Counted from the first letter of the stretch, positions 31,859-62,572 are shown. The stretch: 64,000 bases of DNA from an uncultured virus (IMG/VR IMGVR_UViG_3300024259_000022) (IMGVR_UViG_3300024259_000022), one strand, 5' to 3'. Program-made: numbers and translations. The notes: generated from the letters alone by a model not told the origin.

Positions 31859-32044
31859 CTAAAAAGGTATATCATCATAATTAGTTTCAGGATCTGAGAA
31901 ATCCATAGTAGTAGGTGAATCTTCATACATCCTTTGTCTTATCTCCTCCATTGTGGGCTTTCTCCCTAGTTCCTTAAGAAGCTCTTGATACGCTGTGTTC
32001 CAATCTAAACCCATTGTAATAGTCGCTTTTTTAAACCAGTTCAT
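31859..32044 (-). CDS. Small protein with MNW-type tag
   Basis: MNWFKKAT..LLKELGRKPTMEEI (resembles a sigma region 3-like helix). Confidence 0.6.
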   Translation of the reverse strand: MNWFKKATITMGLDWNTAYQELLKELGRKPTMEEIRQRMYEDSPTTMDFSDPETNYDDIPF

Positions 32045-32080
32045 AATAAATATCTATTCAAAACTACAAATAAAATACCT

Positions 32081-32602
32081 CTATAAATTTATCTCAAATT
32101 CTTTATCTTTATCATTTATAAAAACTAACTTATCAAAAGAAATCTCTGTGCCTTCTACAAAGCTATCCCCTCCAAATTGAGCAGCTTCACCCTTCTCAAC
32201 ATAAGCAATAGTACAATGTGGCTGATACTTGTTAAATGATTCTGTTACATCTAACTTTCTTTTTATATCCTCATGTAATCTTCTAAGATCTTCACTAATA
32301 ATCTCAATCTTAACTACATCAAAATCAGGACTCTTCTTAAAATAAGAAACTTTTCCTAATTTTATTTTTATAGATTTGTAACTCTTAGCTATTTCTTTAA
32401 CAGATTCTACACTATTGTCACAAACTCCATAGATTACCGTTATATGGGTGTCTGTCTCTCTCCCCTTGCCTTCCTCCTTGCATAAGATACTATCTGAGAT
32501 ATTATCCTTGCCCCACTTCTTAATCTTACTAGCGGGCTTCTGAGGAAGTCTTACGGCTATCCATCCACTACACTCTTTTTTTGCTCTTTTATACCAATTC
32601 AT
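32081..32602 (-). CDS. 2H phosphoesterase, Acb1/T4 57B-like anti-CBASS nuclease candidate
   Basis: Two HxT motifs THITVIYG and YQPHCTIAY; SEDLRRLH segment; MNWYKRA tag. Confidence 0.75.
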   Translation of the reverse strand: MNWYKRAKKECSGWIAVRLPQKPASKIKKWGKDNISDSILCKEEGKGRETDTHITVIYGVCDNSVESVKEIAKSYKSIKIKLGKVSYFKKSPDFDVVKIEIISEDLRRLHEDIKRKLDVTESFNKYQPHCTIAYVEKGEAAQFGGDSFVEGTEISFDKLVFINDKDKEFEINL

Positions 32603-32974
32603 CTATTTCTCAACATATTGTTGCTGATTCTGAAACCAATCATTATTTTGCCATAATGGAATAGGTTTCTCTTCTTTTTTAGGAGCTTGTGGCTCAACAG
32701 TTTTCTTATTACGATACCTACGACTCTTACGACTATTATTTAAAAGAATATCCTTATCTAAACCAAGACCTTTAAGCATTGATTCCATTGTGCCAGTAAG
32801 CAATTCCTCTCCTCGATGCTGATCATGGATAATCGTAACAAAACCATTATCTAAATTAATAAGCTTCTTACCCTTCTGAGTAACATTGATGTCAGGATGC
32901 TTTCTTAACCTCCTAACAAACTCAACAGCATTCATAGATAATTTATTTAATTGCGCTCTTTTATACCAATTCAT
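32603..32974 (-). CDS. HicA-like protein with MNWYKRA tag
   Basis: MNAVEFVRRL..VTQKG..VTIIHDQHRGEELLTGTMESMLKGLGL fits the HicA fold; lacks the GSH histidine. Confidence 0.6.
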   Translation of the reverse strand: MNWYKRAQLNKLSMNAVEFVRRLRKHPDINVTQKGKKLINLDNGFVTIIHDQHRGEELLTGTMESMLKGLGLDKDILLNNSRKSRRYRNKKTVEPQAPKKEEKPIPLWQNNDWFQNQQQYVEK

Positions 32975-32977
32975 TAT

Positions 32978-34168
32978 TTAATTACTCATTCCCTCTGTTC
33001 CTGACCCCTCATTATATAAAAACTCAATATCATCTTGAGATAGTGTCTTAGTAAATATGCAGAAGTTATCTAAATCACCATCATAATAATTAGCAGGAGT
33101 TCCTGAAACATTATTTGCTCCGACATATAATAAGTGAGGAGAAGTAGTGAAAGAATCCATATCATTTGCCACATTACCACTTGTTTTTACAAATACACCA
33201 TCAACATATAGTTTTATATTCATAGTGTTAGTATCAACTTCTTGAGCTGTTATAGTAATCATTCTCCAGTCGTTACCAACATTATCTGTAAACACTTCAG
33301 ATGGAGTAGTAATAGTAGTTAATGCTGTTGCCTTATACTCAAAAGAAATTTTACCATTTGAATCTAAAATAATGTTATAATAGTTAGTAGCGGCAGTCCC
33401 CTCAACACCTGCAAAAGACTGTAGTGAAGATGCAGATGGATGACCATCAAGAGGTTTTGCCCAAAAATTAAAACTAAAACCATCAACAAAAATAGGAGGT
33501 GGGCCTAAGGCTGCAGTAGCAATAAAATCAGAAAAACCGTTAAATGATAATGACGTATTTATCTTACCTGATACTGTTAATCCTGAAGTATTTGCCTGAG
33601 CAGTTCCATCATTTCCATACTCATTAATAATATTAGTATTAGATAAATTATCATTCATCTTATACTGGAGTATTGTATCACTAGTTAAATCTATTGAGAT
33701 ACTCTCAGTTAATACCCAATCAGTAATATCGTAACCAGCGTCTAAACTTAAATTACTCCAACCAACAGGACACGAGTTAGTATATAAAAATGCTGAAGAC
33801 CAATAAGAGTCCATCTCTACATTAATCCAGTTATCAAGTTTCTCTTTATCAGTGCCATCAAAACTGCTATTACTAACAACATGATTATTAACCGTTCTGA
33901 CAGCATCTAACAAACTAGCAATATTAGTTGCTATATTTAAAGACTGAATATAAGCCGCATTGTAAGGTGATAGAAGTGCTGACTCTATTTCTAATGCTGC
34001 ATCTGCATCAGCAACAGACGGTGTAGAGTCTGGATATGTAGTTGTATCAACATCTACGATCCCGTCAAGAGCAGATCTAGCATTAGCAGCCACGCCCGAC
34101 AACGCAACTTCGACTGCCGCATATGCTTGTGATATCGTATTATATAAGACTGGATCTATTTGGGCCAT
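32978..34168 (-). CDS. MAQID-domain protein fused to a LamG/concanavalin-like domain
   Basis: Likely start MAQIDP at 34168; GKINTSLSFNG, FSFNFWAKP, IKLYVDG, YDGDLDNFCIFTKTLSQDDIEFLYNEG. Confidence 0.8.
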   Translation of the reverse strand: MAQIDPVLYNTISQAYAAVEVALSGVAANARSALDGIVDVDTTTYPDSTPSVADADAALEIESALLSPYNAAYIQSLNIATNIASLLDAVRTVNNHVVSNSSFDGTDKEKLDNWINVEMDSYWSSAFLYTNSCPVGWSNLSLDAGYDITDWVLTESISIDLTSDTILQYKMNDNLSNTNIINEYGNDGTAQANTSGLTVSGKINTSLSFNGFSDFIATAALGPPPIFVDGFSFNFWAKPLDGHPSASSLQSFAGVEGTAATNYYNIILDSNGKISFEYKATALTTITTPSEVFTDNVGNDWRMITITAQEVDTNTMNIKLYVDGVFVKTSGNVANDMDSFTTSPHLLYVGANNVSGTPANYYDGDLDNFCIFTKTLSQDDIEFLYNEGSGTEGMSN

Positions 34169-34240
34169 AAGGATTTTATCCAATATATCATTACTTAATA
34201 ATATATTATCGTTTCTTAGACAAAATCCTTGAATATTTTT

Positions 34241-35327: not shown

Positions 35328-36176
35328 TTAAACTGTTTGAGGTTGCTGAACTTCGTCAGGATATGTGTGATCGTTGATGATTTGTAAGTATTTATGTTTA
35401 ATAGCCATTGCTATATCAGAGTCAGTTTGATACTTACTGCCTACAAAACCATTTAATAAATTTATGGCCTTCTGCCTTGAGTCAAAATATAAAAGACGAT
35501 TTTCTAACTTCTTTCCATGTTCATCTTCAAATTGCTTCCACCATTCTTTCATTTGCCTAGATTTATTTTCTCTTAATTGTGGGTTCTCTTCATATGTTTT
35601 TTTAATTCTATCGCTCTGTCTCTTTTTAAGATCTGGATCGTTGTCCCATCTTTGTTTTATTTTCTTTCCGTGATCTTCTCTCATCTCAGGATTATCTATA
35701 TATCTTTGTTTCATCATTTCACCGTGTTCTTTCCCAACTTCTGGATGTTCTTCATAAAATTTCTTTTTTCTCAAACTTTGTTCTTCCTTTTGTTTGGGAT
35801 CTTGCCATCTTTTCTTACTGGCATAAGATGCATCTCTAATTTCTTCTTCTAGCCCCAATCTCCTTAAAACATTATAAATTGTTCTAGCATTAATACCATT
35901 CGTATTTAGTATTTCTATAACTCCCATTCCCTCACCATATGGAGGAAGACGATACATCTTCGCTACCCTTCTATCATAGTCTAATCTTTCTTGTTTTATA
36001 TCTCTCCACTTATGCTTATCATTCAAAATAGATATACTTTTTGGATGAACACCGAACATACGACCAATCTCTCTAAAACTTTTACCTTCATTAACTAAGT
36101 TTTTTATAGTTTCAATCTGGTCATCTGTCCAACTTATCCATTTTGCTATCTTTAATTGTCTCTTATACCAATTCAT
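35328..36176 (-). CDS. HTH plus NUMOD3-like repeat protein with MNWYKR tag
   Basis: WTDDQIETIKNLVNEGKSFREIGRMFG HTH; repeats of the type KKRWQDP/KKFYEEHP/KQRWDNDP. Confidence 0.6.
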   Translation of the reverse strand: MNWYKRQLKIAKWISWTDDQIETIKNLVNEGKSFREIGRMFGVHPKSISILNDKHKWRDIKQERLDYDRRVAKMYRLPPYGEGMGVIEILNTNGINARTIYNVLRRLGLEEEIRDASYASKKRWQDPKQKEEQSLRKKKFYEEHPEVGKEHGEMMKQRYIDNPEMREDHGKKIKQRWDNDPDLKKRQSDRIKKTYEENPQLRENKSRQMKEWWKQFEDEHGKKLENRLLYFDSRQKAINLLNGFVGSKYQTDSDIAMAIKHKYLQIINDHTYPDEVQQPQTV

Positions 36177-36598
36177 GCTCTACCCATAATTGTAGAGATT
36201 TTCTTATCTGTCCTTCTAATTAGCCTTTCAATATTCATTATCTCTTTTTTAACAATATTACTGGCAGGCATTCCTTGATACCATGGGTAATCAGGAGGAG
36301 CATTATCATGATATTTACCAGGATAATATTTCTCATAATAACCAGGAGCAAATTCTTTAATCTGTTTAAGTTTTTGATTCAAAACCTTAATCTCTTCCTC
36401 TAATGGCATAATGTCTTGCATCTTCTTGTGATGTCTTGCATTACGCTTAACTTGCTGGTTCCAATCATATTGGCCAGGTCTTTCTTTATCAACTTCACTA
36501 TCTTCAAAAAGATAAGGATTTATTCTACTATCATCTTCTAGAACTTCTTTATGTTGTTCAGGAAATGCTATCTTTAATTGTCTCTTATACCAATTCAT
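36173..36598 (-). CDS. Hypothetical protein with MNWYKR tag
   Basis: First 33 nt identical to those of 35328..36176. Confidence 0.6.
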   Translation of the reverse strand: MNWYKRQLKIAFPEQHKEVLEDDSRINPYLFEDSEVDKERPGQYDWNQQVKRNARHHKKMQDIMPLEEEIKVLNQKLKQIKEFAPGYYEKYYPGKYHDNAPPDYPWYQGMPASNIVKKEIMNIERLIRRTDKKISTIMGRA

Positions 36599-38695: not shown

Positions 38696-39568
38696 TTAAG
38701 AAGCATTTGCATCGGTCATAGTAATTTTAGAAATTGCATAGTCGTTAATTACAACGATACCAATTTCTTCATATATAACCCAGCCGAGTCTCAATTTTTT
38801 AGGATCATCAGCAGGTAGAACTGTGATGTCTTGACGAATTGGGAAAGCTCCAACTGTTTCAGGACTTGCTACTACAAGAACTGTATTACTATCCATACGT
38901 GAAGAAACATGGATATCAGCAGTCCACAAATGACCGTACAAGCCAGTTGTGATAATTTCTCTCTGAGTTGCCTCATCGTAGAAGTCCTTACCGAAAGTTC
39001 TAATGCTAGCATACTGGAAAGCATGTGTAACAATTTTAGCTGCTACTAGGTCATGCTGTTCGATCTGCTTAAATGCTTCGTTCAACGCAGGAATCGTTAG
39101 AGTTCCATAGTTGGTAATACTTTGTGCTCCAGGACACGCTGTCAAAAGAGCATTAAAGATATTACTATCTTCTTCCTTTTGAATCGCTTCTTTAGCCTTG
39201 ATCTGTGCTCTGTCTACGATGTAGAATCTACGAGCTTTGATCTCAGACAGTCTAACTGTTGGGTTAGCTGCGATTTCAAAAGTTGGGACTAACACTTCTT
39301 CAGCTTCTTGAATCTGATCAGGTACAGCACCTCTACGAGATACAACCCAAGCAATAGCTGCAACGTCACGCTCATATCTTGCAAGAGCGCCTTGTGGCAA
39401 TTCATCGACCATAAGAAGTTTTCTTCCTACAGCTTGATACTCAAGAGCCCTACGGATAGGTTCTACCATTGCCTGAGCAAGAGCAGTTCTACCTTCGTCA
39501 GTCTCAAGAGCCTGAGCAATTACCATTTCTTTTTCTTGGTCACTAAGACCGTTTTTATCAAATGCCAT
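38696..39568 (-). CDS. Major capsid protein (HK97 fold, short encapsulin-like type)
   Basis: ALAQAMVEPIRRALEYQAVGRKLLMVDELPQG..VPTFEIAANP..LGWVIYEEIG; strong RBS and terminator; follows protease and decoration genes. Confidence 0.88.
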   Translation of the reverse strand: MAFDKNGLSDQEKEMVIAQALETDEGRTALAQAMVEPIRRALEYQAVGRKLLMVDELPQGALARYERDVAAIAWVVSRRGAVPDQIQEAEEVLVPTFEIAANPTVRLSEIKARRFYIVDRAQIKAKEAIQKEEDSNIFNALLTACPGAQSITNYGTLTIPALNEAFKQIEQHDLVAAKIVTHAFQYASIRTFGKDFYDEATQREIITTGLYGHLWTADIHVSSRMDSNTVLVVASPETVGAFPIRQDITVLPADDPKKLRLGWVIYEEIGIVVINDYAISKITMTDANAS

Positions 39569-40247: not shown

Positions 40248-43200
40248 TTATTTATTGTAAGTTTTTCTCAATTGAGCCAAATCATCGTGGTCAGCATCTT
40301 TATTCTGTTTATCAAGAGTAAAGAGTGTTGACAGCTTTGAAGTAATATCATCTTGAGAGCCTCTTACGCTGCTCGCCTCATTTATCTGTATGGTCTGAGA
40401 CATACCATCTGAAACAGTGTTAAGTCCTTTTTGAGCAAAGATAGCTTTTTCAATATCTCTGATCTGCGAAGGCTTATAAGCTTTTAACTCATTTATCTTT
40501 GTAGGAAGGTCAGTCGCTTCAATTTGACTTGCTTGAAGCATTCTACCTGCTACTCTAATAGCCTCGGACTCCGAATCGTTATTAGCGATTACTGTGCCTT
40601 TATCTTTAGTAGTTTTTTCACTACCTATTTCTGAACTTTCTTCTTTTCCCTGTAGAGCATTTCCTGTAAACACATCAGGATGGTCTTTAGGAGAATCAGG
40701 TTTTGTTCCTATTGTTTCACTTTCGTGACCCATCATTCCTGAGTCACTTTTAACATCTGACAAATTAATTTCTTCAGCAGTAAACTTTTCTTCTTTACCG
40801 ATAGTTCCCCCATCAGAGATAGGTTTAATATCAGCATCTTCAGCTACAGGTTCTGGAGGAGCAAGTTTCTTAGCAATTCTATCAGCAAGACTTGAGATGG
40901 CCTCTTTCGAGTTCCCAAAGCCCTTCATATGCATAAGATCGTTATCAACAGAAGCTAGTTCTGTTTTGCCTTGACCTTGATCTCCACCTGTAAATCTAAC
41001 ATCTCCACCACTCAAGCCAGCTTCATCTTCGTGACCCATCGTAGCATTATCTGATGGAATAACTGGAAGAGGTTTATCTTGAGGGTTAAGATCGCTATCT
41101 TCTTGTCCCATTAAAGCGCCATCTCTTGGAACAGAAGGTTTTCCTGGAGTTCTAATAGTATCTGACTCATGACCCATTAAGCTTCCACCCTCACCTGCTG
41201 AGTAAGAACCTATATCTTTTGAGTCTTGAGCTTTTTCTTGAGAGATTTCTTTTTCTCCCGCAGTTTTATTTAAAGCATCTATTACGCCTGATAAATCCAT
41301 TTGTGTTTTTCCTACTTTACCAACATTATTTTCCATTACACTTGCTGTCATTGGATTTCCTGTTGGTTGTCCGTTGACAGTAACATTAACTTTCGAAGGT
41401 TGTCCTGAGAATCCTCTATTATTATCAGAATTTTGCATTTCTTGTTCGAAAGGAGCATTACCATCTATTCCTGTTGCAGGTTTTTCATCTCCCATACCTT
41501 GATCTAGAGTAGCACCATCAGCAGCCCCCATGTCTCCACCCGTCTCAGCACCCATTCCTGGATCTTCCACAGATTTCATTGGTCCGCCTCTAGCGTCGCT
41601 CAAATCATCAGGACCGATAGCTTCTTCTATAGGAGCGCCATCACCTGCATCATCAAGAAGAGGATCTCCACCAAGGTCTTCTCCACCTAAATCATCAATA
41701 GGAGGTTCTCCACCAAGGTCTTCTCCAAGTTCTCCTTCAATATCTCCACCAAGTTCTCCTTCAATATCTCCACCACCTGTAGCAACATCTACTGCTTCTC
41801 CAATTTGGTCTACAACATCAGAAGGAAGTTCAAGAGTAACAGTTCCACCAATATCTTCTCCACCAAGTTCTCCTTCAATATCTCCACCAAGTTCATCATC
41901 GATAGAGTCTCCACCGAATGGATCTTCTTCAACTACAGGAACATCAGGATCGGTATCAGGAGTATCATCAAATGACTCTTCTCCTGCCAACTCATCTGTT
42001 AGGAAGTCTTCTCCCTCTGCTACTACTACCTTAAGAGCAGAGCAAACTGTTGCTGCCTGTCTTAGTGAGTATCCTGAACGGACTTGATGAGTAATACATT
42101 CTTCATCTCCATCGCAGTCAGACCACACATCAGCAAGCTTTATAGCAATTTTATTTGTATAAACATCTGCTTTTTTAAGTCTATTACATACTGACTCTGC
42201 AAGAGGTTTTCCTTCATCAGGACCACTCAAGCAAAGAGCATTTTCACCAAAACGTCTTGCAAGTTTTTCTATGCAAGATTCGACTGGGAATTTATCTCCA
42301 TAGCCACCATATGCCACTTTATAATCTTTAAGAACTGATCCTTCTTTACTTGCTGTTTTAATAGTTTTCAAAGCACCAGATTCTTTAAGTTTGATAATTG
42401 TTCCAACTTGATCTTTAAGATCCATCTTATTGAAACCTGCTTCTGTAAGTTTTACGCTTGAGAGAGCTTTTACGAATTTTTGTTTTGCTCTGTCGCAAGA
42501 TGGGCAAATTGTATTTGCTGTTCTTGGAGACCATTCCCATTGACCGAAAACTTGTTTTCCATCTGTAGAAGTCATAAATGCCACTTTATATTTTGTTCCT
42601 GTATCGAGACAGATATAAGAGCCATCTTCCATTCTAACAGTATTAGTTGAACCAGTAGCAGGGCTAACAGATCCAATTTTCTCAACCTTATTTGAGGTTG
42701 CAACTTTAACTGCTTCAGGAAGAATCCTGATAGTTGTTGCAAACTTAATTTCTCTATCATTTGTTACTGAAGCTGCCGCAGGCATTTCACCCATTTCCAT
42801 CTCCATTGCTCCTGGGCCTTCTCCAAGACCTTCTTCAGTAGGCATTTCAAAACCTTCTCCTTCAAAACCTTCTTCTACCTCTTCTTCTCCTTCTCCACCT
42901 TCATCAGGAGTAACGCCTTGCCACTTAGTGACATTAACTTCTACTTTATATGTCATTTCGGAACTACAATTTCCGCATTTACCTTTACCATCAAGAACAT
43001 CAACATCATCACTACCACAAACAGGGCAAATAGATCCTGGAGGTAGAGGTTCAAGGTTATCTTCAAGACCGCCTTCTTCTCCCATTCCTGGCTCATCTGT
43101 AAAGCTTTCCATTGGAGGAGCCCCCATCTCTGGAGCGCCAGGCATTGAAGCACCAGCACCTGGAGCTTGAGCTGCACCACCCATGCCACCCATTTCGCCA

Positions 43201-45923
43201 CCCATCATCTGAGCAGTTTTAATTTCTTTCTTAGCTGATGATAAAATATCTACCTCAGGAGGTGGTGGCGGTAATTTAACTCCATCGCCTTGACCTCTTG
43301 CATCTTTGTCCTCTTCGCAACACTCTTCTTCTTCAAATGGGCATTCATCTCCATTAATATCAGCATCAATATCTTCAACAGGGCCTTCAATAATATCACC
43401 GATATCATCAGGAACTATCTCTTCTTCTGCTCCATCTTGAATATCTATGATTAATTCACCACTGTCTCCAACTTCAATTTTAATAACTGCTGCTGCAACT
43501 GAATCATCCTCAATCATTTCTTGTGCAAATTTCTTTACACCTGCAACGAAAGCGACTTTATCAGTAATAGGAACTCCAATATCTTCCATTGTAGCTCTAA
43601 CTTGATATCTGCCATCTTTTGGCTTATCAAGTTCTTTAATAGCTGATTCAAGAGAAGATGTCTTACTGACTATAGTAGTGTCAGCAACCTTATTCATTTT
43701 ATACTTAACGATAGAATTAACTTTTACCATTTGTGTCTCATTATTAATAACATGAGAGATAGTGTCAAAAACATCTTCTGCCTTCATACCGAATTGAGCA
43801 TTAGAAGCTGCTGTTACGATTAAGGCATCGATTGTTGACAAACCATTTTGAGATGCTGTCTTTGCAAAATAAGAAGCATTAGAGGCAATTGCTTGTCTGC
43901 TCTCTTTTTTATAAGGAAGAGAATTAAGAACTGCCAAGAAAGCTACTTTTGATTTCATATCAGCATCATCATTAAGAACAGAAGCCGTTCTCTTAATCTC
44001 TAATGGAGACTTGCGATAAGTAGCAATAAGATCTGCTATAATATTAGTAGCTGTTTTAACAAGAGAAACTGAATAATTTTTATTAGCCCATCTCTTCAAT
44101 CCATCAGTCATATTAATATTCTTTAACTGATCTTCAGTAATAGTCTCTACATCGCCAATAAACTTATGGTTACTAAGGAGATCTCTGATTTGTGCCTGTG
44201 TAATAGACTCTGTATAATCGTCAGGAATATTACCTGCGATATCTCTACTAAAGTCATCCCACTGTTTTTCAGTAATAACATCTGGATATTCATTAAAATG
44301 AATTACAGCCTCACCTAAAGCACTCTGAGTCTTCATTTGGTCTTCAGTAATAGTTTCATATGTTCCTATACGAACTTGAGGGCTATCAGAAGTAGTATCA
44401 TTACTTTTTTCAGAGCCACCGATTTGCTCTTTACTCTCAGTAATACCTTCATAAACTTCTTCTGTTCTTGGATGAAGTGGCTCAGCTTCTTTGCTAAGTT
44501 GCTTTTCCGTGATTACTTCAAGGTTTTCTGTATTTGCCGCCACTTTTGTGGTTTTCTTATCAGTAGCCATATCTGCTCCTATTTCTAATTTAGAATTAAT
44601 ATTTTTATTTAAATTACGTAGACTCTCATCCAGAGAGTTGACTTTACTCATTAACTTTTGACTTATTCGCAAAAAATCCTCTATTTTTCTTGAAGAATTT
44701 TTTGGCATTGTGACATTCCCAAGGCCTGCCATTTCAGAAGTTTGACTTCCTGCTGGCTGAGGAGGTGCTTGTTGAGCTGCCATTTGCTCAGGAGGAAGAG
44801 GTGCTGGGAACTGTTCTGCAACGATTGGATTGTCATCATCTGCCCCTGTTACTGGAGGAGAAGGCAATGCTCCATATCCCATTTCTGTAAGTTCATCATA
44901 AAAATCTTGAATATCTGCCATAGCCTTAACTATTTGACTAACATACTCCATTGAAACATTTTCTTTCTGTTTCAACATACTCTTAGTCACTTTTTCAAGC
45001 TCATCCATACTATTTTTAAGTGATTGTAACTCTTTGACTCCACCAAACTTAGTAATAATATCGCTATCTTCTTCACTAAGATGTGCTTCTTTAATAAGAC
45101 CGCCTACCATCCTATTGAACGATGCTACCTTACTCTCAATAACAGGAGAGTTAAGAACACACTTTACTCCACAGTCATGGCATGCAGGATTCACAACAAA
45201 ACTATTTTCAATAAACTTTAAACCATAGTTATGCTCAAAAATAGGCTGTTCTGAGTGCTTTAGTGTATTAGTGTCATCTGCTGTGCTTTTGCAGATAGGG
45301 CATTTATCTAGTTTATCTGTAGGACTATTATGATAGGAGCATTTTAAGTCTCCTGTATACTTCCTGTTTTTTCTATTTGCTACATGTGAGCAATAGTCTT
45401 CAGAAGTATGAGCATTGTTGTGACATACAGAACAAATAGAATTCTCTACAGAGCAACCCATTGATGTTCCTGTAATATACCCCTCTTCAATTCCCCTCGC
45501 TAAGCGTGGGTAAGCAAGTTTATCTACTCTTCCTATAATATAGATTCCACCTTCTTCTTGATCGTACCAAGAGTGAACACATTCTCCTCTTGCCTTTTCT
45601 ACATCATCATTTTGGTGATTAGTAAAAAGTGGAACTCCAACGAAGCTCTCTGTTGCTGTCTTAAGCTCTGCTTCACAGAAAGCATCTCCATTATCGTTAG
45701 GTTCATCTTTTTTAATCGCAAAAACTTTAATATAAAGATGATCGGGATGATCTGAGGTAGCTTCTTTAAGATCAAAACCTCCAAGGTCTTCTCCTTCTAC
45801 ATCTATAGAAGCAGTTTTAATTTGGTTAGGAAGTTCAAATATATCCCAACCTTTTCCTTTAGGTTTATTTAAAGCAGTTACCTTACACTTATGTGAAAAA
45901 GTTGCTTTTTTATACATTGCCAT
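40248..45923 (-). CDS. Prohead protease-scaffold polyprotein
   Basis: N-terminal protease motifs NDNGDAF, LFTNH, GTSMGC, FIENSFVVNPA; long acidic low-complexity scaffold with many K-x-A motifs. Confidence 0.75.
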   Translation of the reverse strand: MAMYKKATFSHKCKVTALNKPKGKGWDIFELPNQIKTASIDVEGEDLGGFDLKEATSDHPDHLYIKVFAIKKDEPNDNGDAFCEAELKTATESFVGVPLFTNHQNDDVEKARGECVHSWYDQEEGGIYIIGRVDKLAYPRLARGIEEGYITGTSMGCSVENSICSVCHNNAHTSEDYCSHVANRKNRKYTGDLKCSYHNSPTDKLDKCPICKSTADDTNTLKHSEQPIFEHNYGLKFIENSFVVNPACHDCGVKCVLNSPVIESKVASFNRMVGGLIKEAHLSEEDSDIITKFGGVKELQSLKNSMDELEKVTKSMLKQKENVSMEYVSQIVKAMADIQDFYDELTEMGYGALPSPPVTGADDDNPIVAEQFPAPLPPEQMAAQQAPPQPAGSQTSEMAGLGNVTMPKNSSRKIEDFLRISQKLMSKVNSLDESLRNLNKNINSKLEIGADMATDKKTTKVAANTENLEVITEKQLSKEAEPLHPRTEEVYEGITESKEQIGGSEKSNDTTSDSPQVRIGTYETITEDQMKTQSALGEAVIHFNEYPDVITEKQWDDFSRDIAGNIPDDYTESITQAQIRDLLSNHKFIGDVETITEDQLKNINMTDGLKRWANKNYSVSLVKTATNIIADLIATYRKSPLEIKRTASVLNDDADMKSKVAFLAVLNSLPYKKESRQAIASNASYFAKTASQNGLSTIDALIVTAASNAQFGMKAEDVFDTISHVINNETQMVKVNSIVKYKMNKVADTTIVSKTSSLESAIKELDKPKDGRYQVRATMEDIGVPITDKVAFVAGVKKFAQEMIEDDSVAAAVIKIEVGDSGELIIDIQDGAEEEIVPDDIGDIIEGPVEDIDADINGDECPFEEEECCEEDKDARGQGDGVKLPPPPPEVDILSSAKKEIKTAQMMGGEMGGMGGAAQAPGAGASMPGAPEMGAPPMESFTDEPGMGEEGGLEDNLEPLPPGSICPVCGSDDVDVLDGKGKCGNCSSEMTYKVEVNVTKWQGVTPDEGGEGEEEVEEGFEGEGFEMPTEEGLGEGPGAMEMEMGEMPAAASVTNDREIKFATTIRILPEAVKVATSNKVEKIGSVSPATGSTNTVRMEDGSYICLDTGTKYKVAFMTSTDGKQVFGQWEWSPRTANTICPSCDRAKQKFVKALSSVKLTEAGFNKMDLKDQVGTIIKLKESGALKTIKTASKEGSVLKDYKVAYGGYGDKFPVESCIEKLARRFGENALCLSGPDEGKPLAESVCNRLKKADVYTNKIAIKLADVWSDCDGDEECITHQVRSGYSLRQAATVCSALKVVVAEGEDFLTDELAGEESFDDTPDTDPDVPVVEEDPFGGDSIDDELGGDIEGELGGEDIGGTVTLELPSDVVDQIGEAVDVATGGGDIEGELGGDIEGELGEDLGGEPPIDDLGGEDLGGDPLLDDAGDGAPIEEAIGPDDLSDARGGPMKSVEDPGMGAETGGDMGAADGATLDQGMGDEKPATGIDGNAPFEQEMQNSDNNRGFSGQPSKVNVTVNGQPTGNPMTASVMENNVGKVGKTQMDLSGVIDALNKTAGEKEISQEKAQDSKDIGSYSAGEGGSLMGHESDTIRTPGKPSVPRDGALMGQEDSDLNPQDKPLPVIPSDNATMGHEDEAGLSGGDVRFTGGDQGQGKTELASVDNDLMHMKGFGNSKEAISSLADRIAKKLAPPEPVAEDADIKPISDGGTIGKEEKFTAEEINLSDVKSDSGMMGHESETIGTKPDSPKDHPDVFTGNALQGKEESSEIGSEKTTKDKGTVIANNDSESEAIRVAGRMLQASQIEATDLPTKINELKAYKPSQIRDIEKAIFAQKGLNTVSDGMSQTIQINEASSVRGSQDDITSKLSTLFTLDKQNKDADHDDLAQLRKTYNK

Positions 45924-46175: not shown

Positions 46176-46646
46176 TTAATATAAACTTCTATCTTCTCTT
46201 CTGTCTTTAAGACCTCTAGGAGTATGAGTTTCAGGTGGTGTACTATTATTTATATGATTATCATTTTGTGGTCCTTCTGCATCTAATCTTAATTGAATTT
46301 GCTTTACTAAATTATTCTCGTAATTTAATGGCAATTCTTTATTTCCAAGAACCTCAAAGATGCCATCGCTTGGATCTGTTAGCCCTCTTTCCAACATAGC
46401 ATCAACTATTTTTTCTACCAATATTTTCAATGGTCGGTCTGAATGTATTCCATAAAATCCTAGACACATATTCCCAACTTGCTTAGTTTCTCCAGATGCC
46501 ATATTCTTAATAATATTCATATATGCTCCCCCTCTAACATTCCCGCAATGATCGCAAGGTTGACCTACTCCATCCACTTGTTCAATTACTTCCCAAATTT
46601 CTTGTTGAGCTAATTTCTCATAACTTGCTGTTTTAAGAATTTTCAT
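46176..46646 (-). CDS. Zinc-finger protein with MKILKTASY tag
   Basis: Likely start at MKILKTASYEKLAQ; CDHCG..VGNMC. Confidence 0.6.
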   Translation of the reverse strand: MKILKTASYEKLAQQEIWEVIEQVDGVGQPCDHCGNVRGGAYMNIIKNMASGETKQVGNMCLGFYGIHSDRPLKILVEKIVDAMLERGLTDPSDGIFEVLGNKELPLNYENNLVKQIQLRLDAEGPQNDNHINNSTPPETHTPRGLKDRREDRSLY

Positions 46647-47307: not shown

Positions 47308-47691
47308 TTACATAGAAGCAGGTTCATACCAAGGACTTGTCGATGGAGCTGCTTTTGGATTTTGTTTAGATGGAAGAGGGTCAATAGACGTTCCTTGTGA
47401 TTGATATTTGTTCCATAAATCAGAAGTTAATGAGTCAATTCTCGCAGCTCCGTCTTGACCAGCAGCAGGAGGAGTTACTTGTTCTATAGCTTGTTCAATA
47501 CTCATCTTACCCGCTGAACTCTGAAAAAGCTGTAATGCCTTAACAGCAAATGGAACATAAACAGAATCTCCGTCTTGATAGCTTGGATAGTCATTTTTAA
47601 GATTCTCTGCATTACTTCCAGGATACATCTCAGCTAAACCACTTTGCCTTGCCTCTATTTTCTTATAACTTGCTGTTTTGAAAATTTTCAT
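47308..47691 (-). CDS. Protein with MKIFKTASY tag
   Basis: Likely start at 47691 (ATGA overlap with the upstream ORF). Confidence 0.6.
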   Translation of the reverse strand: MKIFKTASYKKIEARQSGLAEMYPGSNAENLKNDYPSYQDGDSVYVPFAVKALQLFQSSAGKMSIEQAIEQVTPPAAGQDGAARIDSLTSDLWNKYQSQGTSIDPLPSKQNPKAAPSTSPWYEPASM

Positions 47692-47918: not shown

Positions 47919-48695
47919 TTAATTTTTATTGTTACGAGGATCTACTAAAGGAGTTTTAGCCTGCTGGACTGCTTGAGTATTAGTGACAACATTCTGCCTT
48001 CCACCTTTTTGCACAGACCCAATCAACTTCTGAACAACTGTTTGTATCTCTTCTAGTGCCATTAACGACTCATCTGTAGATTGAAAGCTATTTATATTTC
48101 CAGCAAAAGCGTTAGAAAGTTTTCTCAGTTGAGAAGAAAATTGTCTTATATAGTTAAAATTTACATCTTCTACTGGCTGCTGTCCTGGTACTGGCTGCTG
48201 TCCTGGCATTGGTGCGATTGCTTGTTTTCTTGTCGTGCTTTTTGCTCTAATCGTTTTAATAACTTTCATATTTTCTCCTTTAACATGGCGAGGAATCTCT
48301 ATTCCCATTAATTGGGCTTCTGTATAATTAGGTGCTCCCTTAGGAAATGGTATAGCCCATTTATCTGAGGCGTGACTAAGAGCTGCTATAGAGCTGGTGA
48401 AATACTCACCAGCAGGAGCATATATCTTAGCTTTAGGATCGTCAGGAAGTTTCTTAATCCCCGCGAAAAATCTCTTCTTACCATCCTTAGTTAAAGATGG
48501 CCCCATAATAATAAAATAATCAGAGTCAGTCGTATAGTCGTGACCTTCCCATCTTATATAAGAGGACGGGCCAAGCTGTTTCTCAAATCTCTTTTTTAAC
48601 TTCTGAGATCTTTCGTGATAAAACTCTTTCCACTCTATTCCTCTATCTTTAATCCTCTGGCGTCCAGAAAACTTATGTATTCTCTCCATTTTCAA
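47919..48695 (-). CDS. Hypothetical head-associated protein, probably two fused units
   Basis: Internal AAGGAG RBS plus in-frame ATG at 48269 (MKVIKTIRAKS). Confidence 0.6.
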   Translation of the reverse strand: MKMERIHKFSGRQRIKDRGIEWKEFYHERSQKLKKRFEKQLGPSSYIRWEGHDYTTDSDYFIIMGPSLTKDGKKRFFAGIKKLPDDPKAKIYAPAGEYFTSSIAALSHASDKWAIPFPKGAPNYTEAQLMGIEIPRHVKGENMKVIKTIRAKSTTRKQAIAPMPGQQPVPGQQPVEDVNFNYIRQFSSQLRKLSNAFAGNINSFQSTDESLMALEEIQTVVQKLIGSVQKGGRQNVVTNTQAVQQAKTPLVDPRNNKN

Positions 48696-51448: not shown

Positions 51449-52675
51449 CTAACTTTTTTTTTTGCTTGAAGCTTCTTTCCAGTTAAATGGTTTTGAAGTA
51501 TCAGTAGCACCTGCTATGTCGCCTTTAGCTCTAGCCGCTTGTAGCCTTGATTCTGTATTCCCATATTCAGGAAGAATAGGCTTTCTTGTCTGACCTGGCT
51601 TTAGCTGCATATTATTTGTTTCAGGGATATTTCTATCAACTTCAAAACGCTTATTGATATAACCACCTACCCAGTCGCCTTCTTTATTCTTATAAGGTCT
51701 TGAGTATTTATCCATGACATTTTCACGCCATATAGTTTCATAGTCGATATTCCAAACATCATCAACAACAAGACCAAAGCCTTTGTTTCTCTCAACGATA
51801 TGCCAATCAGAAACTGGCTGATGAAGGAATGGATCTATTCTTGTTTGGCCTGGACCCCACATAATAGCATTATCCATAGTTTTATGTTGTGCTGTCTTTG
51901 TGACGTTAAAGGCCTTCTTTTCATGTCTGCCAACATGTTTTTGTGCTAACTTTTTAATCATATCTGAAACTTCATTAACTGAAGCCCCTACTTCTTTATA
52001 TGGAGCTTGAATAGGCATAGTATCCTCTTTCCCGTAAATTAATTCATGAATAATCTCTGCATCTTTCAATTTTTGCTCTTCACCCTTTATTTCAAAACCT
52101 TGAAAATAACTTTTTAAAGCTGCTTGTGCCGAATCTGCTTCTTTAGGATTTTCTTGCATAATATCATTCCATGCTTCTTGAAAAGCATTTTTAGAATTAG
52201 AAACTTCTATCAACATATTATTTAAATCACTATGTGTCTCATATTTTTTAAAAGACTGTGGATCTTCTGGCATAGGATCTTCTGGCATAGGCATTTCTGG
52301 CATAGGAGCTTCTGGCATAGGCATTTGTGCTTTCTTTAAATTAAATGGTTTAGCACTCGCTAAAGAGTTTAAATTCCCACCCGCCAAACCTGATGCCGCA
52401 TCAGCTCGTTCTTGAGTTGTATCGACATTAACAGAATTTGCTAATTCTTCCATTATTTGTGCTTCTTCCATACCATTAATCATATCTTGAGGAGAGTCAT
52501 AAAGACTACCACCATCATAATTACTATTATATAAGAAATGAGCATCTGCCTCTGTGAAACCGTTAAGTGCCAACCCTGGAGGAATAACCAAAGGTGCTTG
52601 AGGAGGCATTACTGCATCCATCACATTTTGAGGATTTGGATTTCCATATGCTCTTTTTCTTAAATTAAAGGTCAT
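51449..52675 (-). CDS. Putative internal head protein with FNLRKxA tags
   Basis: MTFNLRKRA, PFNLKKAQ, AFNVTKTAQ, PFNWKEAS. Confidence 0.55.
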   Translation of the reverse strand: MTFNLRKRAYGNPNPQNVMDAVMPPQAPLVIPPGLALNGFTEADAHFLYNSNYDGGSLYDSPQDMINGMEEAQIMEELANSVNVDTTQERADAASGLAGGNLNSLASAKPFNLKKAQMPMPEAPMPEMPMPEDPMPEDPQSFKKYETHSDLNNMLIEVSNSKNAFQEAWNDIMQENPKEADSAQAALKSYFQGFEIKGEEQKLKDAEIIHELIYGKEDTMPIQAPYKEVGASVNEVSDMIKKLAQKHVGRHEKKAFNVTKTAQHKTMDNAIMWGPGQTRIDPFLHQPVSDWHIVERNKGFGLVVDDVWNIDYETIWRENVMDKYSRPYKNKEGDWVGGYINKRFEVDRNIPETNNMQLKPGQTRKPILPEYGNTESRLQAARAKGDIAGATDTSKPFNWKEASSKKKS

Positions 52676-58949: not shown

Positions 58950-59723
58950 TTATTGAGATGGTATCTGTTGTTGAGACTGTTGTTTGATTTGCTCTTGAAC
59001 TGGAGGTCCGAGCTGAGATAATCTAGGAATAGCTTGTAGAAGATTGCTCCAGGCATTTGACACATTATCCCCCAAATTATTTTCCCTCATAGTATTAATT
59101 ACTTGTTGTGTCATGTCTTTTACTACTGTTGTATCTGGTGAAAACATATTATTAAGTGTTGGTTCTAAATCTCTTAAAGAAGTTCCTTCAGGAATAGCGT
59201 GAGTATCTATTTGTGATTCTTCTTTCATTTTTTGAAATTCTCTTTCACTTTTGGGAGATTTGTTCTTAATTAATTCTCCTAGAAATTCAACTTCCTGCCA
59301 CGCCTCTTTTAGTTCTTTCAATTTCAATTTTACTTCATCAGTTTTTGACCATCTATTCTCCTCTTGTATATAATAAAACCATTTTTTTAAAGCTTCTGCT
59401 GCATATCTTATGTCTCGGCAAGCTTCATTTCGATAATATTTATAATTATAACCAGGTTCATATTTCTTATATTTTGATAATGGAAGTAAGAAATTTTCAG
59501 GCTTTTCAATTAAGTCTCTTAAAAGAAATTCCGTCCACTTTTGATTCCAACCTCCTTTATATTTAGATAGTATGGGAATTAATTGTTTAATTTCTTGTGA
59601 AATATCATGAGTATCTAAAAATTTATTACGTCTGTTTGTAAAATAATCCTCTCTTCTTCTCTCATTATCTTCCAAGTCAAATTCTGCTAACTTTTTATAT
59701 TTTGCTGTTTTTAATATTTTCAT
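58950..59723 (-). CDS. Protein with MKILKTAKY tag
   Basis: GGAGAG RBS before MKILKTAKYKKLAE. Confidence 0.6.
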   Translation of the reverse strand: MKILKTAKYKKLAEFDLEDNERRREDYFTNRRNKFLDTHDISQEIKQLIPILSKYKGGWNQKWTEFLLRDLIEKPENFLLPLSKYKKYEPGYNYKYYRNEACRDIRYAAEALKKWFYYIQEENRWSKTDEVKLKLKELKEAWQEVEFLGELIKNKSPKSEREFQKMKEESQIDTHAIPEGTSLRDLEPTLNNMFSPDTTVVKDMTQQVINTMRENNLGDNVSNAWSNLLQAIPRLSQLGPPVQEQIKQQSQQQIPSQ

Positions 59724-60772: not shown

Positions 60773-61765
60773 CTATTCCATATCGGTTCTTTTTCTATAC
60801 CTGTCTAAAGCTTGTTCGTCATCGGCAAAACTTACATCTTCTCCAGAGTTTATATCATCTATCATATGCTTCAATATATCTCCTGGCTTTTCTGTAAGAG
60901 GATTACCCCTACTATCTAGTTCTAACATAGCGTCCATTTCTGTCTTGGGGAGTCTCTTCTCACCAACAGGTTTTAATGTTGTTACTTTCTTTTTTTTAGC
61001 CTTCGATACCTTTTTTTTTGTTTTTTTAGCAACAGTTTTCTTTTTTGCTACTTTTTTCTTAATAGTCTTCTTTTTTGTAGTTTTTTTCTTTTTCGCTACT
61101 TTTTTAGCTTTAACTTCAATTTCTTCCTCTATTTCATCTTCACCGTCAATGAAGTCCATATCTTCTCTCTCATCTTCTCCGACCTTAATAAAATCTTCTG
61201 ACTTAGGAATTTTTATAGCCTCTTCTGTCGTTTGTGTCTGAGGATTCCACGTAACAGCCACAGGGTTTTTATCTTCTCCGCTCTCAGGAGTCACAAAATC
61301 TGATGCTTCAATAACTTTAACATCTTTCTTTTTATCCTTTTTGGTAGTTTTCTTCTTTTCAGCTTTTTTCTTAGTAGTCTTCTTCTTTGCAGTTTTCTTC
61401 TCTACATATGTCTCTTCATCAGATATAATTGTGATAATACCATCTTCTTCTGCTGATATAATCTCAGGAATTTCAGCTTCGTCCTTACTTATAGGTAAAG
61501 ATCCATTAGGTCTTAATGCTGTTTTTCCTAAAACAAGCACCCTATCAGTATTATTGATAATAATAACATCATGATCTTTTTCTATTGCATCATGATCATA
61601 ATCCTTATCTACAGGAATTAAAATTCCTTTTCTCACAACATCTTTAACATCGCTTGCTCTTAATTTATTACCAGTAATAGATATGGTCATACCTGCCCAT
61701 ATAGCCTTTTTAAGTGTTGGCAGAACACAACTGCCCTTAAATTTTTCAGATACTTTAAATATCAT
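60773..61765 (-). CDS. Protein with histone H1-like lysine-rich tracts
   Basis: KKTAKKKTTKKKAEKK.., KKVAKKKKTTKKK..; AAGGAG RBS. Confidence 0.65.
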   Translation of the reverse strand: MIFKVSEKFKGSCVLPTLKKAIWAGMTISITGNKLRASDVKDVVRKGILIPVDKDYDHDAIEKDHDVIIINNTDRVLVLGKTALRPNGSLPISKDEAEIPEIISAEEDGIITIISDEETYVEKKTAKKKTTKKKAEKKKTTKKDKKKDVKVIEASDFVTPESGEDKNPVAVTWNPQTQTTEEAIKIPKSEDFIKVGEDEREDMDFIDGEDEIEEEIEVKAKKVAKKKKTTKKKTIKKKVAKKKTVAKKTKKKVSKAKKKKVTTLKPVGEKRLPKTEMDAMLELDSRGNPLTEKPGDILKHMIDDINSGEDVSFADDEQALDRYRKRTDME

Positions 61766-61825
61766 CTGTTTCTCCTTATTTGATAGTAAAACAACATTTT
61801 CATTTAATCATCGACAATTTTAGTA

Positions 61826-61863
61826 AAAAAAAATAGCTACCAACTATTTTGTCAGTAGCTATG
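61826..61863 (-). terminator. Intrinsic terminator
   Basis: ATAGCTAC..GTAGCTAT stem followed by a T-run. Confidence 0.6.
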
Positions 61864-61886
61864 AGTTAAAAGTTTTTCTGGATTAT

Positions 61887-62378
61887 TTATAATCTCAGAC
61901 CTTTAATTTTTGTATCTTGTTTGATCCTTCTAAACACATTCCCTCTATTTCTATGCATGCTCTGAGGGCTTGGTGGCCCTTTATCCAATCTTTCTGATTC
62001 CCCTCCTATTGGCATAGTATCATCATCTTCAATACCTTCGCCTCTAGAAGTAAACCTATCTCCTAATCCATCATGACTATCTCCAGCCTCTCCCATATCA
62101 TTTTCTTCATCATCCATCAATACTGCCTCTCCTGGCAACCCCTTTAGGTAAACAGTATCATCATCCTCATTATTATCAGGATTTTGGCTATAATGTTTTG
62201 GGCCACCAGGATTCCTTGCGTTTCCGCCTGCTTCAAACGCACCAGCAGGGTCAGTTAAGAAGGAAAAATCGTCATCTATCTTCTTCTTCTTCTCATCACG
62301 ATTACCCCTACTATAATCATCCATAATAGGAATAGTCCCACCTCTCATCCTTGCTATTTTTTTATACCAATTATTCAT
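61887..62378 (-). CDS. Acidic disordered protein with NWYKKIA tag
   Basis: MNNWYKKIAR. Confidence 0.6.
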   Translation of the reverse strand: MNNWYKKIARMRGGTIPIMDDYSRGNRDEKKKKIDDDFSFLTDPAGAFEAGGNARNPGGPKHYSQNPDNNEDDDTVYLKGLPGEAVLMDDEENDMGEAGDSHDGLGDRFTSRGEGIEDDDTMPIGGESERLDKGPPSPQSMHRNRGNVFRRIKQDTKIKGLRL

Positions 62379-62380
62379 AA

Positions 62381-62572
62381 CTATATAGAACGATAAGGTT
62401 CAACCTCATAACTATTTATTCTAGTTTCTTTTACAGATGAAAACTCTTTTATTTTTCTTTCTGCTTCTTTTTGTTCTAATGCTTTATCTTCCTGCTCGGC
62501 AACAAAAATATCTCCTTCCATCGAGAAAGTATATCTAGATTTTGGTAATTGTCTATTATACCAATTAGGCAT
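62381..62572 (-). CDS. Small protein with NWY tag
   Basis: MPNWYNRQL; AAGGAG RBS. Confidence 0.6.
   Translation of the reverse strand: MPNWYNRQLPKSRYTFSMEGDIFVAEQEDKALEQKEAERKIKEFSSVKETRINSYEVEPYRSI

What the first reader, a model, noticed from the sequence alone, without database searches (positions are those of the whole stretch)
31859..62572. Portable N-terminal 'MNWYK[RK]..A' tag on unrelated proteins: candidate capsid-targeting signal
Seen: seven otherwise unrelated ORFs start with the same peptide: MNWFKKA (32044), MNWYKRA (32602, 2H phosphoesterase), MNWYKRA (32974, HicA-like), MNWYKRQLKIA (36176, HTH/NUMOD3-like), MNWYKRQLKIA (36598), MNNWYKKIA (62378) and MPNWYNRQL (62572). The protease/scaffold itself starts MAMYKKA. 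Codons vary (AAC TGG TTT AAA AAA GCG vs AAT TGG TAT AAA AGA GCA), so conservation is at least partly at the peptide level. Most tags end in K-x-A, the motif that fills the scaffold. Known: T4 internal proteins carry a ~10-aa N-terminal capsid-targeting sequence that the prohead protease removes. Inference: this phage uses a modular tag to package diverse effector cargo into the head and inject it with the DNA.
Basis: partly seen in the sequence, partly recalled or inferred. Interest (0 to 1): 0.9.

Follow-up and report, generated by a model that had tools for sequence, protein, structure and literature searches.

The report
Portable N-terminal tag in megaphages
A family of giant phages related to Bacillus phage G puts the same seven-residue label (M-N-W-Y-K-x-A) on the front of dozens of unrelated small enzymes and toxins, most likely as an address tag that loads them into the virus head, though this has not been shown by experiment.

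Summary
All 7 window ORFs start with M(N/P)NW[YF]. The DNA pattern occurs 5 times against 0.01 expected.

- **What the window is:** a fragment of a phage-G-like megaphage.
- **How widespread the tag is:** in the window, 80 related loci, one complete genome and 39 loci found by the DNA pattern, 69 distinct tagged proteins fall into 55 sequence families.
- **What is conserved:** the peptide, not the DNA. In one enzyme family, 69 of 80 homologues carry the tag. W3 and K5 are invariant, A7 is 91% conserved and position 6 is free.
- **Lineage variants:** MNWYKQS in genome G005 and MKRLIKKA in phage G.
- **Cargo:** ADP-ribosyltransferase, GNAT, 2H phosphoesterase, HicA, ParB, a transglycosylase and a ferritin-like protein. 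These are the domain types known from virion-packaged polyvalent proteins.
- **Link to the head:** the tag matches the conserved N-terminus of the prohead protease-scaffold (MxFxKxA). It shares K-x-A with a KTA motif concentrated in head proteins.

Best reading, confidence 0.45: a capsid-targeting propeptide like that of phage T4. Packaging and cleavage are untested. I found no published description.

The parts
31859..32044 (-). Tagged ORF, 61 aa, MNWFKKA; tag codons 32024-32044
   Evidence: weak HNH_repeat hit, E 0.005
32081..32602 (-). Tagged ORF, 173 aa, MNWYKRA; 2H phosphoesterase / Acb1-like
   Evidence: Pfam 2_5_RNA_ligase2 1.9e-9 and Acb1 3.3e-7; 69 of 80 homologues carry the tag
32603..32974 (-). 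Tagged ORF, 123 aa, MNWYKRA; no family assigned
35328..36176 (-). Tagged ORF, 282 aa, MNWYKRQLKIA; HTH DNA-binding protein
   Evidence: Pfam HTH_38 1.7e-8; belongs to a 7-member tagged HTH family
36173..36598 (-). Tagged ORF, 141 aa, MNWYKRQLKIA; first 33 nt identical to the next gene; no family assigned
61887..62378 (-). Tagged ORF, 163 aa, MNNWYKKIA; acidic, low complexity; has an ortholog in G001
62381..62572 (-). Tagged ORF, 63 aa, MPNWYNRQL; its G001 counterpart carries a tandem tag, ANWFKKAQNWFNKQ
40248..45923 (-). Prohead protease fused to a scaffold, 1891 aa. It starts MAMYKKAT, has IKTAS at residues 34-38 and contains 7 KTA motifs
   Evidence: PHROG head maturation protease, residues 59-199
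38696..39568 (-). Major capsid protein, followed by a terminator at 38665-38638
   Evidence: phrog_2522 1.4e-63; 55% identity to phage G gp27
48673..50991 (-). Portal protein with a C-terminal DUF559 endonuclease insert and VKTAS at residue 726
46633..47295 (-). Head-module ORF with the long tag form MKILKTANYKKA (two phi-phi-K-x-A units)
46176..46646 (-). Head-module ORF that probably starts at an internal Met: MKILKTASYEK
47308..47691 (-). Head-module ORF that probably starts at an internal Met: MKIFKTASYKK
58950..59723 (-). Head-module ORF that probably starts at an internal Met: MKILKTAKYKK
51449..52675 (-). 408-aa head-module ORF, MTFNLRKRAY, with internal repeats FNLKKAQ, FNVTKTAQ and FNWKEAS

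Best explanation
M-N-W-[YF]-K-x-A (and the longer MKILKTA-xYKK form) is a portable N-terminal propeptide. It directs otherwise unrelated small effector proteins into the assembling procapsid of phage-G-like megaphages. The hydrophobic front (N-W-Y) would dock on a head-interior component. The K-x-A end would be the prohead protease's cleavage motif, so the tag would be cut off after Ala7. The free enzyme would stay in the head and be injected with the DNA. Shown: the tag exists, is portable, is selected at the peptide level, varies by lineage, and shares its pattern with the protease-scaffold N-terminus and with head-module KTA motifs. Inferred: docking, cleavage, packaging and injection.
For: (1) Portability. 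69 distinct tagged proteins form 55 BLAST families. The Pfam-assigned domains start only after the tag.
(2) Peptide-level selection. Synonymous codons in 46 tags track genome usage: AAT 29/AAC 17, TAT 37/TAC 5, AAA 26/AAG 10. In the 2H phosphoesterase family, 69 of 80 homologues down to about 36% identity are tagged. Among 67 full-length tagged members, N2 is 97%, W3 100%, K5 100% and A7 91% conserved, while position 6 is free (K30 I13 R10 T7 Q6 E1). The distant full-length homologues (about 35-42% identity) that lack the tag begin directly at the first strand.
(3) Link to the head. Across 45 protease-scaffold orthologs the N-terminus has the consensus MxFxKxA, with K5 at least 90% conserved. 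Position 6 uses a similar spectrum (K, R, T, I). A second conserved IKTAS lies at residues 34-38. KTA occurs 7 times in the window scaffold, 0-8 times (most often 3-7) in 66 orthologs, and 16 of G001's 44 KTA sites fall in the 27-kb head module. Phage G head proteins show the same motif.
(4) Cargo type. ART-PolyVal, GNAT, 2H phosphoesterase, ParB_N, SLT, AAA_33 kinase, HicA, PcfJ and a ferritin-like protein. ARTs, GNATs, kinases, ParB, lysozyme/transglycosylase and 2H domains are listed as components of polyvalent proteins predicted to be virion-packaged (PMC5512222, passages read).
(5) T4 precedent (PMC9026906, passages read). A 10-residue CTS is sufficient for targeting. Alt, an ADP-ribosyltransferase, loses a 7-residue propeptide. 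The protease gp21 has a cleavage-type motif near its own N-terminus.
(6) Lineage variants. An unbiased N-terminal k-mer scan puts NWY on top in G001, NWYKQ in G005 and KRLI/RLIKK in phage G. GNAT and ART-type cargo carry the local variant in each lineage.
(7) Position. Tagged genes are enriched within 30 kb of the capsid gene: 17 of 62 against 207 of 2059, odds ratio 3.4, P 1.3e-4.
(8) One tagged phage G protein (gp346, ferritin-like, MKRLFKKA) is stated to be in the particle proteome (PMC12484599, main text).
Against: There is no direct evidence of packaging or cleavage. 45 of 62 tagged genes lie more than 30 kb from the capsid gene. The window's tagged cluster at 31859-32974 lies downstream of a strong sigma-70-like promoter match at 34486-34459. 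Another such match sits at 35325-35298. This could mean early rather than late expression, although such matches were no more frequent than in shuffles (46 against 44). In scaffolds the middle residue of K-x-A is nearly always T, whereas in tags it is mostly K, R, I or Q. K and A are also common residues, so the shared motif could be coincidence. Some tags lack K-x-A altogether (MPNWYNRQL, MNWYKKTVE, MNWYKQGDN). The phage G particle proteome lists 104 of 668 ORFs, including many replication enzymes, so finding one tagged protein there carries little weight.
Confidence: 0.45

Rival explanations
1. The tag is a recognition signal for something other than the capsid. Candidates are an N-terminal degron read by host ClpXP or another protease or adaptor that limits the lifetime of toxic effectors, or a docking peptide for a phage chaperone, a compartment or a secretion/transfer machine.
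For: The cargo includes toxins (HicA, ADP-ribosyltransferases) whose dosage might need control. The pattern polar-hydrophobic-hydrophobic-basic resembles the N-terminal ClpX recognition motifs, which I recall from the literature and did not test. Most tagged genes lie away from head genes. Peptide-level selection and lineage variants fit any co-evolving receptor equally well.
Against: G001, G005, G006 and G007 encode no ClpP or ClpX zinc-finger domain; only phage G does. A phage-encoded ClpXP therefore cannot be the common receptor, although host ClpXP remains possible. This reading does not explain why the tag matches the protease-scaffold N-terminus, or why K-T-A piles up in head proteins. 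Read directly from the sequences, no hydrophobic signal-peptide core follows the tag in the 7 window proteins.
Confidence: 0.25
2. The shared start is mainly a by-product of gene turnover. New genes are inserted or swapped at existing tagged starts by recombination, so the tag spreads as a cassette boundary without a protein-level role.
For: Orphan and tandem tags exist. There is a 12-codon ORF MNWFKRAQNELV* directly before an MNWYKRIKYAQ gene in L007. There is a tandem ANWFKKAQNWFNKQ, and NWY motifs sit in upstream-gene tails 30-47 nt before two tagged starts in G001. 33 nt are identical in two adjacent window genes. Tagged genes sit in tandem arrays and next to homing-endonuclease genes.
Against: Synonymous sites vary as freely as in the genome at large, and flanking DNA is not conserved. 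Within one family that has diverged to about 36% identity, W3 and K5 are invariant while position 6 drifts. That pattern shows selection on the peptide.
Confidence: 0.1
3. The tag is a translation-initiation feature: an AU-rich, unstructured start region that replaces or boosts a ribosome-binding site.
For: The coding sequence ATGAAYTGGTAYAAR is AU-rich. Several window tagged genes lack an obvious Shine-Dalgarno sequence.
Against: Shine-Dalgarno-like sequences are as common before tagged genes (6 of 11) as before untagged genes (331 of 633) in G001. Trp (UGG) is invariant and Ala7 is conserved, which AU-richness does not need. Phage G uses a quite different sequence, MKRLIKKA, in the same role.
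Confidence: 0.05

Closest known systems
Phage T4 capsid targeting sequence (CTS) of internal proteins IPI-III and Alt
   Same: It is a short N-terminal peptide (10 residues; Alt loses 7) on unrelated proteins, and it ends in the prohead-protease motif. The cargo includes an ADP-ribosyltransferase. The protease itself carries a similar motif near its N-terminus. IP sets vary between relatives (PMC9026906, passages read).
   Different: There is no sequence similarity: the T4 motif is L/I-x-E and here it is K-x-A. Here there are about 15-25 tagged genes per genome and at least 55 cargo families, against a handful in T4. The genes are scattered in islands. The function here is untested.
Polyvalent proteins of phages and conjugative elements (Iyer et al. 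2017, PMC5512222)
   Same: The effector domain repertoire is the same: ART, GNAT, kinase, ParB, transglycosylase and 2H phosphoesterase. Early action after injection is predicted.
   Different: Polyvalent proteins fuse 2-15 domains in one chain, often with MuF or portal domains. Here each domain is a separate small protein with a 7-residue label.
Encapsulin cargo-loading peptides
   Same: A short terminal peptide loads diverse enzymes into an HK97-fold shell. Ferritin-like proteins are classic cargo, and a ferritin-like protein is tagged in phage G.
   Different: The peptides are usually C-terminal, bind the shell protein directly and are not cleaved. Encapsulins have no portal, protease or DNA.
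Propeptides of phiKZ/SPN3US head and ejection proteins
   Same: These are giant phages that package many ejection proteins after N-terminal processing by the prohead protease (abstracts in the listings).
   Different: Their propeptides are long and protein-specific, and they end in an x-E type motif (recalled). They are not a shared short tag.

Membership tests
T4-type capsid targeting sequence (functional class) | Short N-terminal peptide shared by otherwise unrelated proteins | tested here: met
   69 proteins in 55 families; Pfam domains begin after the tag
T4-type capsid targeting sequence (functional class) | The tag ends in the prohead-protease cleavage motif, which also occurs in core/scaffold proteins | tested here: inconclusive
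   K5-x-A7 is conserved. KTA is enriched in scaffold and head proteins. The protease N-terminus is MxFxKxA. The cleavage specificity of this protease is unknown.
T4-type capsid targeting sequence (functional class) | Tagged proteins are present in virions with the tag removed | not testable with these tools
   The only data point is phage G gp346, reported in the particle proteome. Per-ORF proteomics is not in the held supplements.
T4-type capsid targeting sequence (functional class) | The tag is sufficient to target a foreign protein into the head | not testable with these tools
   This needs a fusion experiment.
T4 CTS (homology) | Sequence similarity to the T4 IP propeptide, with an L/I-x-E ending | tested here: not met
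   The tag is M-N-W-Y-K-x-A. The T4 motif is taken from PMC9026906.
Polyvalent proteins | Several effector domains fused in one polypeptide | tested here: not met
   The window's tagged proteins are 61-282 aa with at most one assigned domain.
Polyvalent proteins | Domain repertoire of ART, GNAT, ParB, 2H, lysozyme/SLT and kinases | tested here: met
   compared with the passages read
Encapsulin cargo-loading peptide | The terminal peptide binds the luminal face of the HK97-fold shell protein | not testable with these tools
Sec/lipoprotein signal peptide | A hydrophobic core of about 10 or more residues follows a basic N-region | tested here: not met
   Read directly from the 7 window sequences. 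Only the SLT proteins of G001 and G005 have a membrane helix after the tag.
Sel1-like repeat | Internal repeated WYxKAAEQG...G.GV helix pairs | tested here: not met
   Most cellular MNWYKKA matches are internal Sel1-type repeats. The phage tags are single, N-terminal, and followed by unrelated sequence.

The most novel reading that the evidence does not exclude
Phage-G-like megaphages use a co-evolving seven-residue address label: M-N-W-Y-K-x-A in this clade and MKRLIKKA in phage G. The label loads 15-25 separate anti-defence and host-takeover enzymes per genome into the capsid. These include ADP-ribosyltransferases, GNATs, an Acb1-like phosphoesterase, HicA, ParB, a transglycosylase and a ferritin-like protein. 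The prohead protease then removes the label at K-x-A. If so, the injected effector arsenal of uncultivated giant phages can be read straight from sequence, and the tag is a ready-made packaging handle.
Probability: 0.4. Interest if true: 0.85.

Novelty: new variant of a known kind. Interest (0 to 1): 0.72.

Why it matters
More than 65% of phage G's ORFs are called hypothetical (PMC12484599 abstract). A sequence label that marks proteins delivered with the DNA would single out the first-strike effectors among those unknowns. At least 55 cargo families are already visible, many with no known domain. It would also show that T4's capsid-targeting principle arose again, or persisted, in a distant lineage and on a much larger scale, as an unfused alternative to polyvalent proteins. 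Phage G can be grown in the laboratory, so the idea is directly testable. If it holds, the tag gives a simple way to load foreign proteins into a very large capsid.

Tried and rejected
- **Complex prediction.** I submitted capsid protein + protease domain (residues 40-270) + the 61-aa tagged protein. The verdict was 'no answer', and it counts neither for nor against binding.
- **Phage G proteomics.** I looked for per-ORF particle proteomics to test whether tagged proteins are enriched in virions. The held supplements of PMC12484599 contain annotation and promoter tables only. A search for 'proteom', 'DIA', 'DDA' and 'peptide' found nothing. Gonzalez et al. 2020 is not in the library. Supplements or raw data I could not see may decide this point.
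- **Tools and data not available.** No whole genome is held for the window.
- **Megablast of 8 kb against the phage collection:** no match.
- **Translation-signal idea:** no difference in Shine-Dalgarno frequency between tagged and untagged genes.
- **Phage-encoded ClpXP as receptor:** absent from the four large metagenomic relatives checked.
- **Cellular use of the tag.** A scan of one genome per prokaryotic species gave 83 matches in 78 stretches. Only 11 look like gene starts, which is about the chance level I estimated by hand. Most are internal Sel1-type repeats.
- **Literature.** Searches for MNWYK, MNWFK, NWYKKA and NWYKRA gave only irrelevant hits. Searches on phage G, capsid targeting, megaphage and propeptide found no description of this tag. 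PMC12484599 has no occurrence of 'N-terminal'.
- **BLAST between phage G tagged proteins and NWY-tagged proteins:** one pair only, ParB-like, E 1.7e-4. Cross-lineage equivalence therefore rests mainly on Pfam domain types.
- **Promoter scan.** Matches were no more frequent than in shuffles, so I drew no conclusion on expression timing.


Full report
**The observation**

All genes in this part of the window lie on the minus strand. Seven ORFs start M(N/P)NW[YF], at 32044, 32602, 32974, 36176, 36598, 62378 and 62572. The peptide pattern NW[YF][KNR][KRQ] occurs 7 times in the six-frame translation of the 64-kb window. Every occurrence directly follows a start Met. The DNA pattern ATGAAYTGGTWYAAR occurs 5 times against 0.01 expected. 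DNA upstream of the start codons is not conserved. The seven proteins fall into seven different BLAST families once the first 14 residues are removed.

**What the window is**

- The capsid protein (38696-39568) is 55% identical to gp27 of Bacillus phage G, a 497-kb phage.
- PHROG and Pfam scans place a portal at 48673-50991, a tail tube at 2753-3841, and a head maturation protease domain at residues 59-199 of the 1891-aa ORF 40248-45923.
- IMG/VR holds more than 80 relatives with 71-97% capsid-protein identity. Several are records of 460-548 kb rated 98-100% complete.
- No whole genome is held for the window itself.

**Spread of the tag**

- In 1.4 Mb (the window plus 80 capsid-centred loci), NW[YF][KNR][KRQ] occurs 35 times. 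32 of these directly follow Met. One more follows a GTG start. One is a hybrid, MNILKTNWYKKA.
- The hybrid links the MNWYK tag to a second N-terminal form that I noticed on head-module ORFs of the window: MKILKTA(S/N/K)YKK at 46646, 47295, 47691 and 59723.
- The closest complete genome, G001 (547,943 bp), has about 19 tagged ORFs in islands. G005 has 14 matches to the DNA pattern and G006 has 7. G007 has 1, the same as its control pattern.
- Pooling all sources gives 82 tagged instances, 69 distinct proteins and 55 BLAST families. This pool includes loci found by a DNA pattern. A few of those, such as L008/L014/L039 and L016, are probably internal to longer ORFs.
- In one genome per prokaryotic species, MNWYKKA gave 83 matches, but only 11 look like gene starts. 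Most lie inside Sel1-type repeats. Cellular organisms therefore do not use it as an N-terminal tag.

**The peptide is what is conserved**

- In 46 tags from the unbiased scan, synonymous codons vary as in the genome at large: AAT 29/AAC 17, TAT 37/TAC 5, AAA 26/AAG 10.
- The window's 2H phosphoesterase has 80 database homologues, and 69 of them carry the tag.
- Among 67 full-length tagged members, N2 is 97%, W3 100%, Y4 90%, K5 100% and A7 91% conserved. Position 6 is free (K30 I13 R10 T7 Q6 E1). Only 24 of 162 other columns reach 95%.
- The distant full-length homologues (about 35-42% identity) that lack the tag begin directly at the first strand of the domain.
- The tag is therefore an add-on of about 9 residues under strong selection, with the pattern M-N-W-[YF]-K-x-A.

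**Lineage variants**

An unbiased scan for k-mers enriched in the first 13 residues gives these top results:

| Genome | Top enriched N-terminal k-mers |
|---|---|
| G001 | NWY |
| G005 | NWY, plus NWYK/WYKQ/YKQS (tag MNWYKQS) |
| Phage G | KRLI, RLIK, LIKK |

About 25 phage G proteins begin MKRLIKKA or a close variant. The general pattern of two hydrophobic residues, K, x, then A or S within the first 12 residues is enriched over its internal rate in all four data sets: 8 against 0.8 in the window, 14 against 6.5, 22 against 5.6, and 19 against 6.5.

**Cargo**

| Source | Pfam assignments of tagged proteins |
|---|---|
| Window | 2H phosphoesterase/Acb1-like, HTH |
| G001 | HicA toxin, ART-PolyVal, AAA_33 kinase, DUF5661, SLT with a membrane helix, HTH |
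| G005 | PcfJ (two), DUF5661, SLT, GNAT, ART-PolyVal, HTH (two) |
| Phage G | ParB_N, ferritin-like, nucleoside deoxyribosyltransferase-like, GNAT, weak PARP |

No tagged protein that got a family assignment is a core replication, tail, capsid or packaging protein. ARTs, GNATs, kinases, ParB, lysozyme/transglycosylase and 2H phosphoesterase are the domain types described in polyvalent proteins, which are predicted to be packaged and injected (PMC5512222, passages read).

**Link to the head**

- The protease-scaffold starts MAMYKKAT. Across 45 orthologs the N-terminus has the consensus MxFxKxA, with K5 at least 90% conserved. A second conserved IKTAS lies at residues 34-38, before the protease core.
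- Position 6 in these orthologs uses K, R, T or I, much like the tags.
- KTA occurs 7 times in the window scaffold. It occurs 0-8 times, most often 3-7, in 66 orthologs.
- In G001 as a whole, KTA is not enriched (44 against 34.5 expected). However, 16 of the 44 sites lie in the 27-kb head module.
- Phage G head proteins carry KTA too, including tagged gp13 and gp20.
- Tagged genes are enriched within 30 kb of the capsid gene: 17 of 62 against 207 of 2059, odds ratio 3.4, P 1.3e-4.

**Most likely mechanism**

By analogy with T4, I propose that the tag docks the protein in the assembling procapsid and that the prohead protease removes it after Ala7. In T4 a 10-residue CTS targets proteins into the head. 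The ADP-ribosyltransferase Alt loses 7 residues. The protease gp21 has a cleavage-type motif near its own N-terminus (PMC9026906, passages read). A conserved K-x-A with a free middle residue has the same form as T4's L/I-x-E.

This is inference. Neither packaging nor cleavage is shown. One tagged phage G protein, gp346, is reported in particle proteomics, but that data set also lists many replication enzymes.

**Points against this reading**

- Most tagged genes (45 of 62) lie more than 30 kb from the capsid gene.
- The window's tagged cluster 31859-32974 lies between a strong sigma-70-like promoter match (34486-34459) and a terminator (31716-31694). That could mean early expression.
- In scaffold motifs the middle residue of K-x-A is nearly always T, while in tags it is mostly K, R, I or Q.
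- Some tags lack K-x-A.

**Rival readings**

- **A different receptor,** such as a degron, chaperone or transfer machine. This fits the selection and the lineage variants equally well, but it does not explain the resemblance to the scaffold. Phage-encoded ClpXP is absent from four large relatives.
- **A cassette-boundary by-product.** Orphan and tandem tags show that genes turn over at tagged starts. The codon data argue for selection on the peptide.
- **A translation signal.** This is not supported.

**Novelty**

Literature searches found no description of this tag, and the recent phage G multi-omics paper does not mention N-termini. The principle is known from T4. This would be a sequence-unrelated, much larger-scale variant in megaphages.

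Noticed in passing
window 46176-47715 and 58950-59735: A second N-terminal tag form, MKI[LF]KTA(S/N/K)YKK, sits on four head-module ORFs. Three of them probably start at an internal Met. A hybrid, MNILKTNWYKKA, in relative L118 links this form to the MNWYK tag.
   Followed up: partly
window 51449-52675: A 408-aa head-module ORF has four copies of an FN[LVW]xKxA-like motif, at residues 3, 111 and 256 and near the C-terminus. ORF 62565-63416 has MKKFNLRKQAS at an internal Met. These are possible protease sites or capsid-binding repeats.
   Followed up: partly
window 13518-15314, 21469-23571, 36658-38505, 48673-50991: Homing-endonuclease or intein-type inserts lie in PhoH (LAGLIDADG_3), a 700-aa ORF (LAGLIDADG_2), a DNA methylase ORF (LAGLIDADG_3) and the portal gene (DUF559/Vsr-like domain at residues 590-731).
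   Followed up: no
window 7330-8397: A phage-encoded actin-like protein matches Pfam Volactin (E 1.1e-51).
   Followed up: no
L007 1465-1518; G001 32744, 114925 and 117592: Orphan or duplicated tags. There is a 12-codon ORF MNWFKRAQNELV* directly before a tagged gene. There is a tandem ANWFKKAQNWFNKQ. NWY motifs also sit in the C-terminal tails of upstream genes, 30-47 nt before the next tagged start.
   Followed up: partly
window, upstream of 39568, 57299, 47852, 28336, 23571 and others: An AAAGGATTTT-like motif recurs in intergenic regions before the capsid gene and other head genes. It may be a phage-specific promoter element.
   Followed up: no
G001 113944-122138: A run of six tagged genes (809, 714, 205, 157, 162 and about 103 aa) is interrupted by an untagged PcfJ-like gene. 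It looks like an operon of candidate ejection proteins. In G005 the PcfJ-like proteins are themselves tagged (MNWYLKNIF).
   Followed up: partly
phage G NC_023719: 35181, 81739, 163172, 178671, 245985, 446697: Six phage G tagged proteins have [FY]H(G/T/H)T(S/D) directly after the tag, which suggests a family of tagged ADP-ribosyltransferase-like paralogs. Only one of them gave a Pfam hit, a weak PARP match.
   Followed up: partly
window 25303-26118: A subtilase (Peptidase_S8, E 1.8e-26) is encoded in the window. A C39-like peptidase lies next to a tagged gene in G001 (286948-287670). Either could be an alternative processing enzyme.
   Followed up: no
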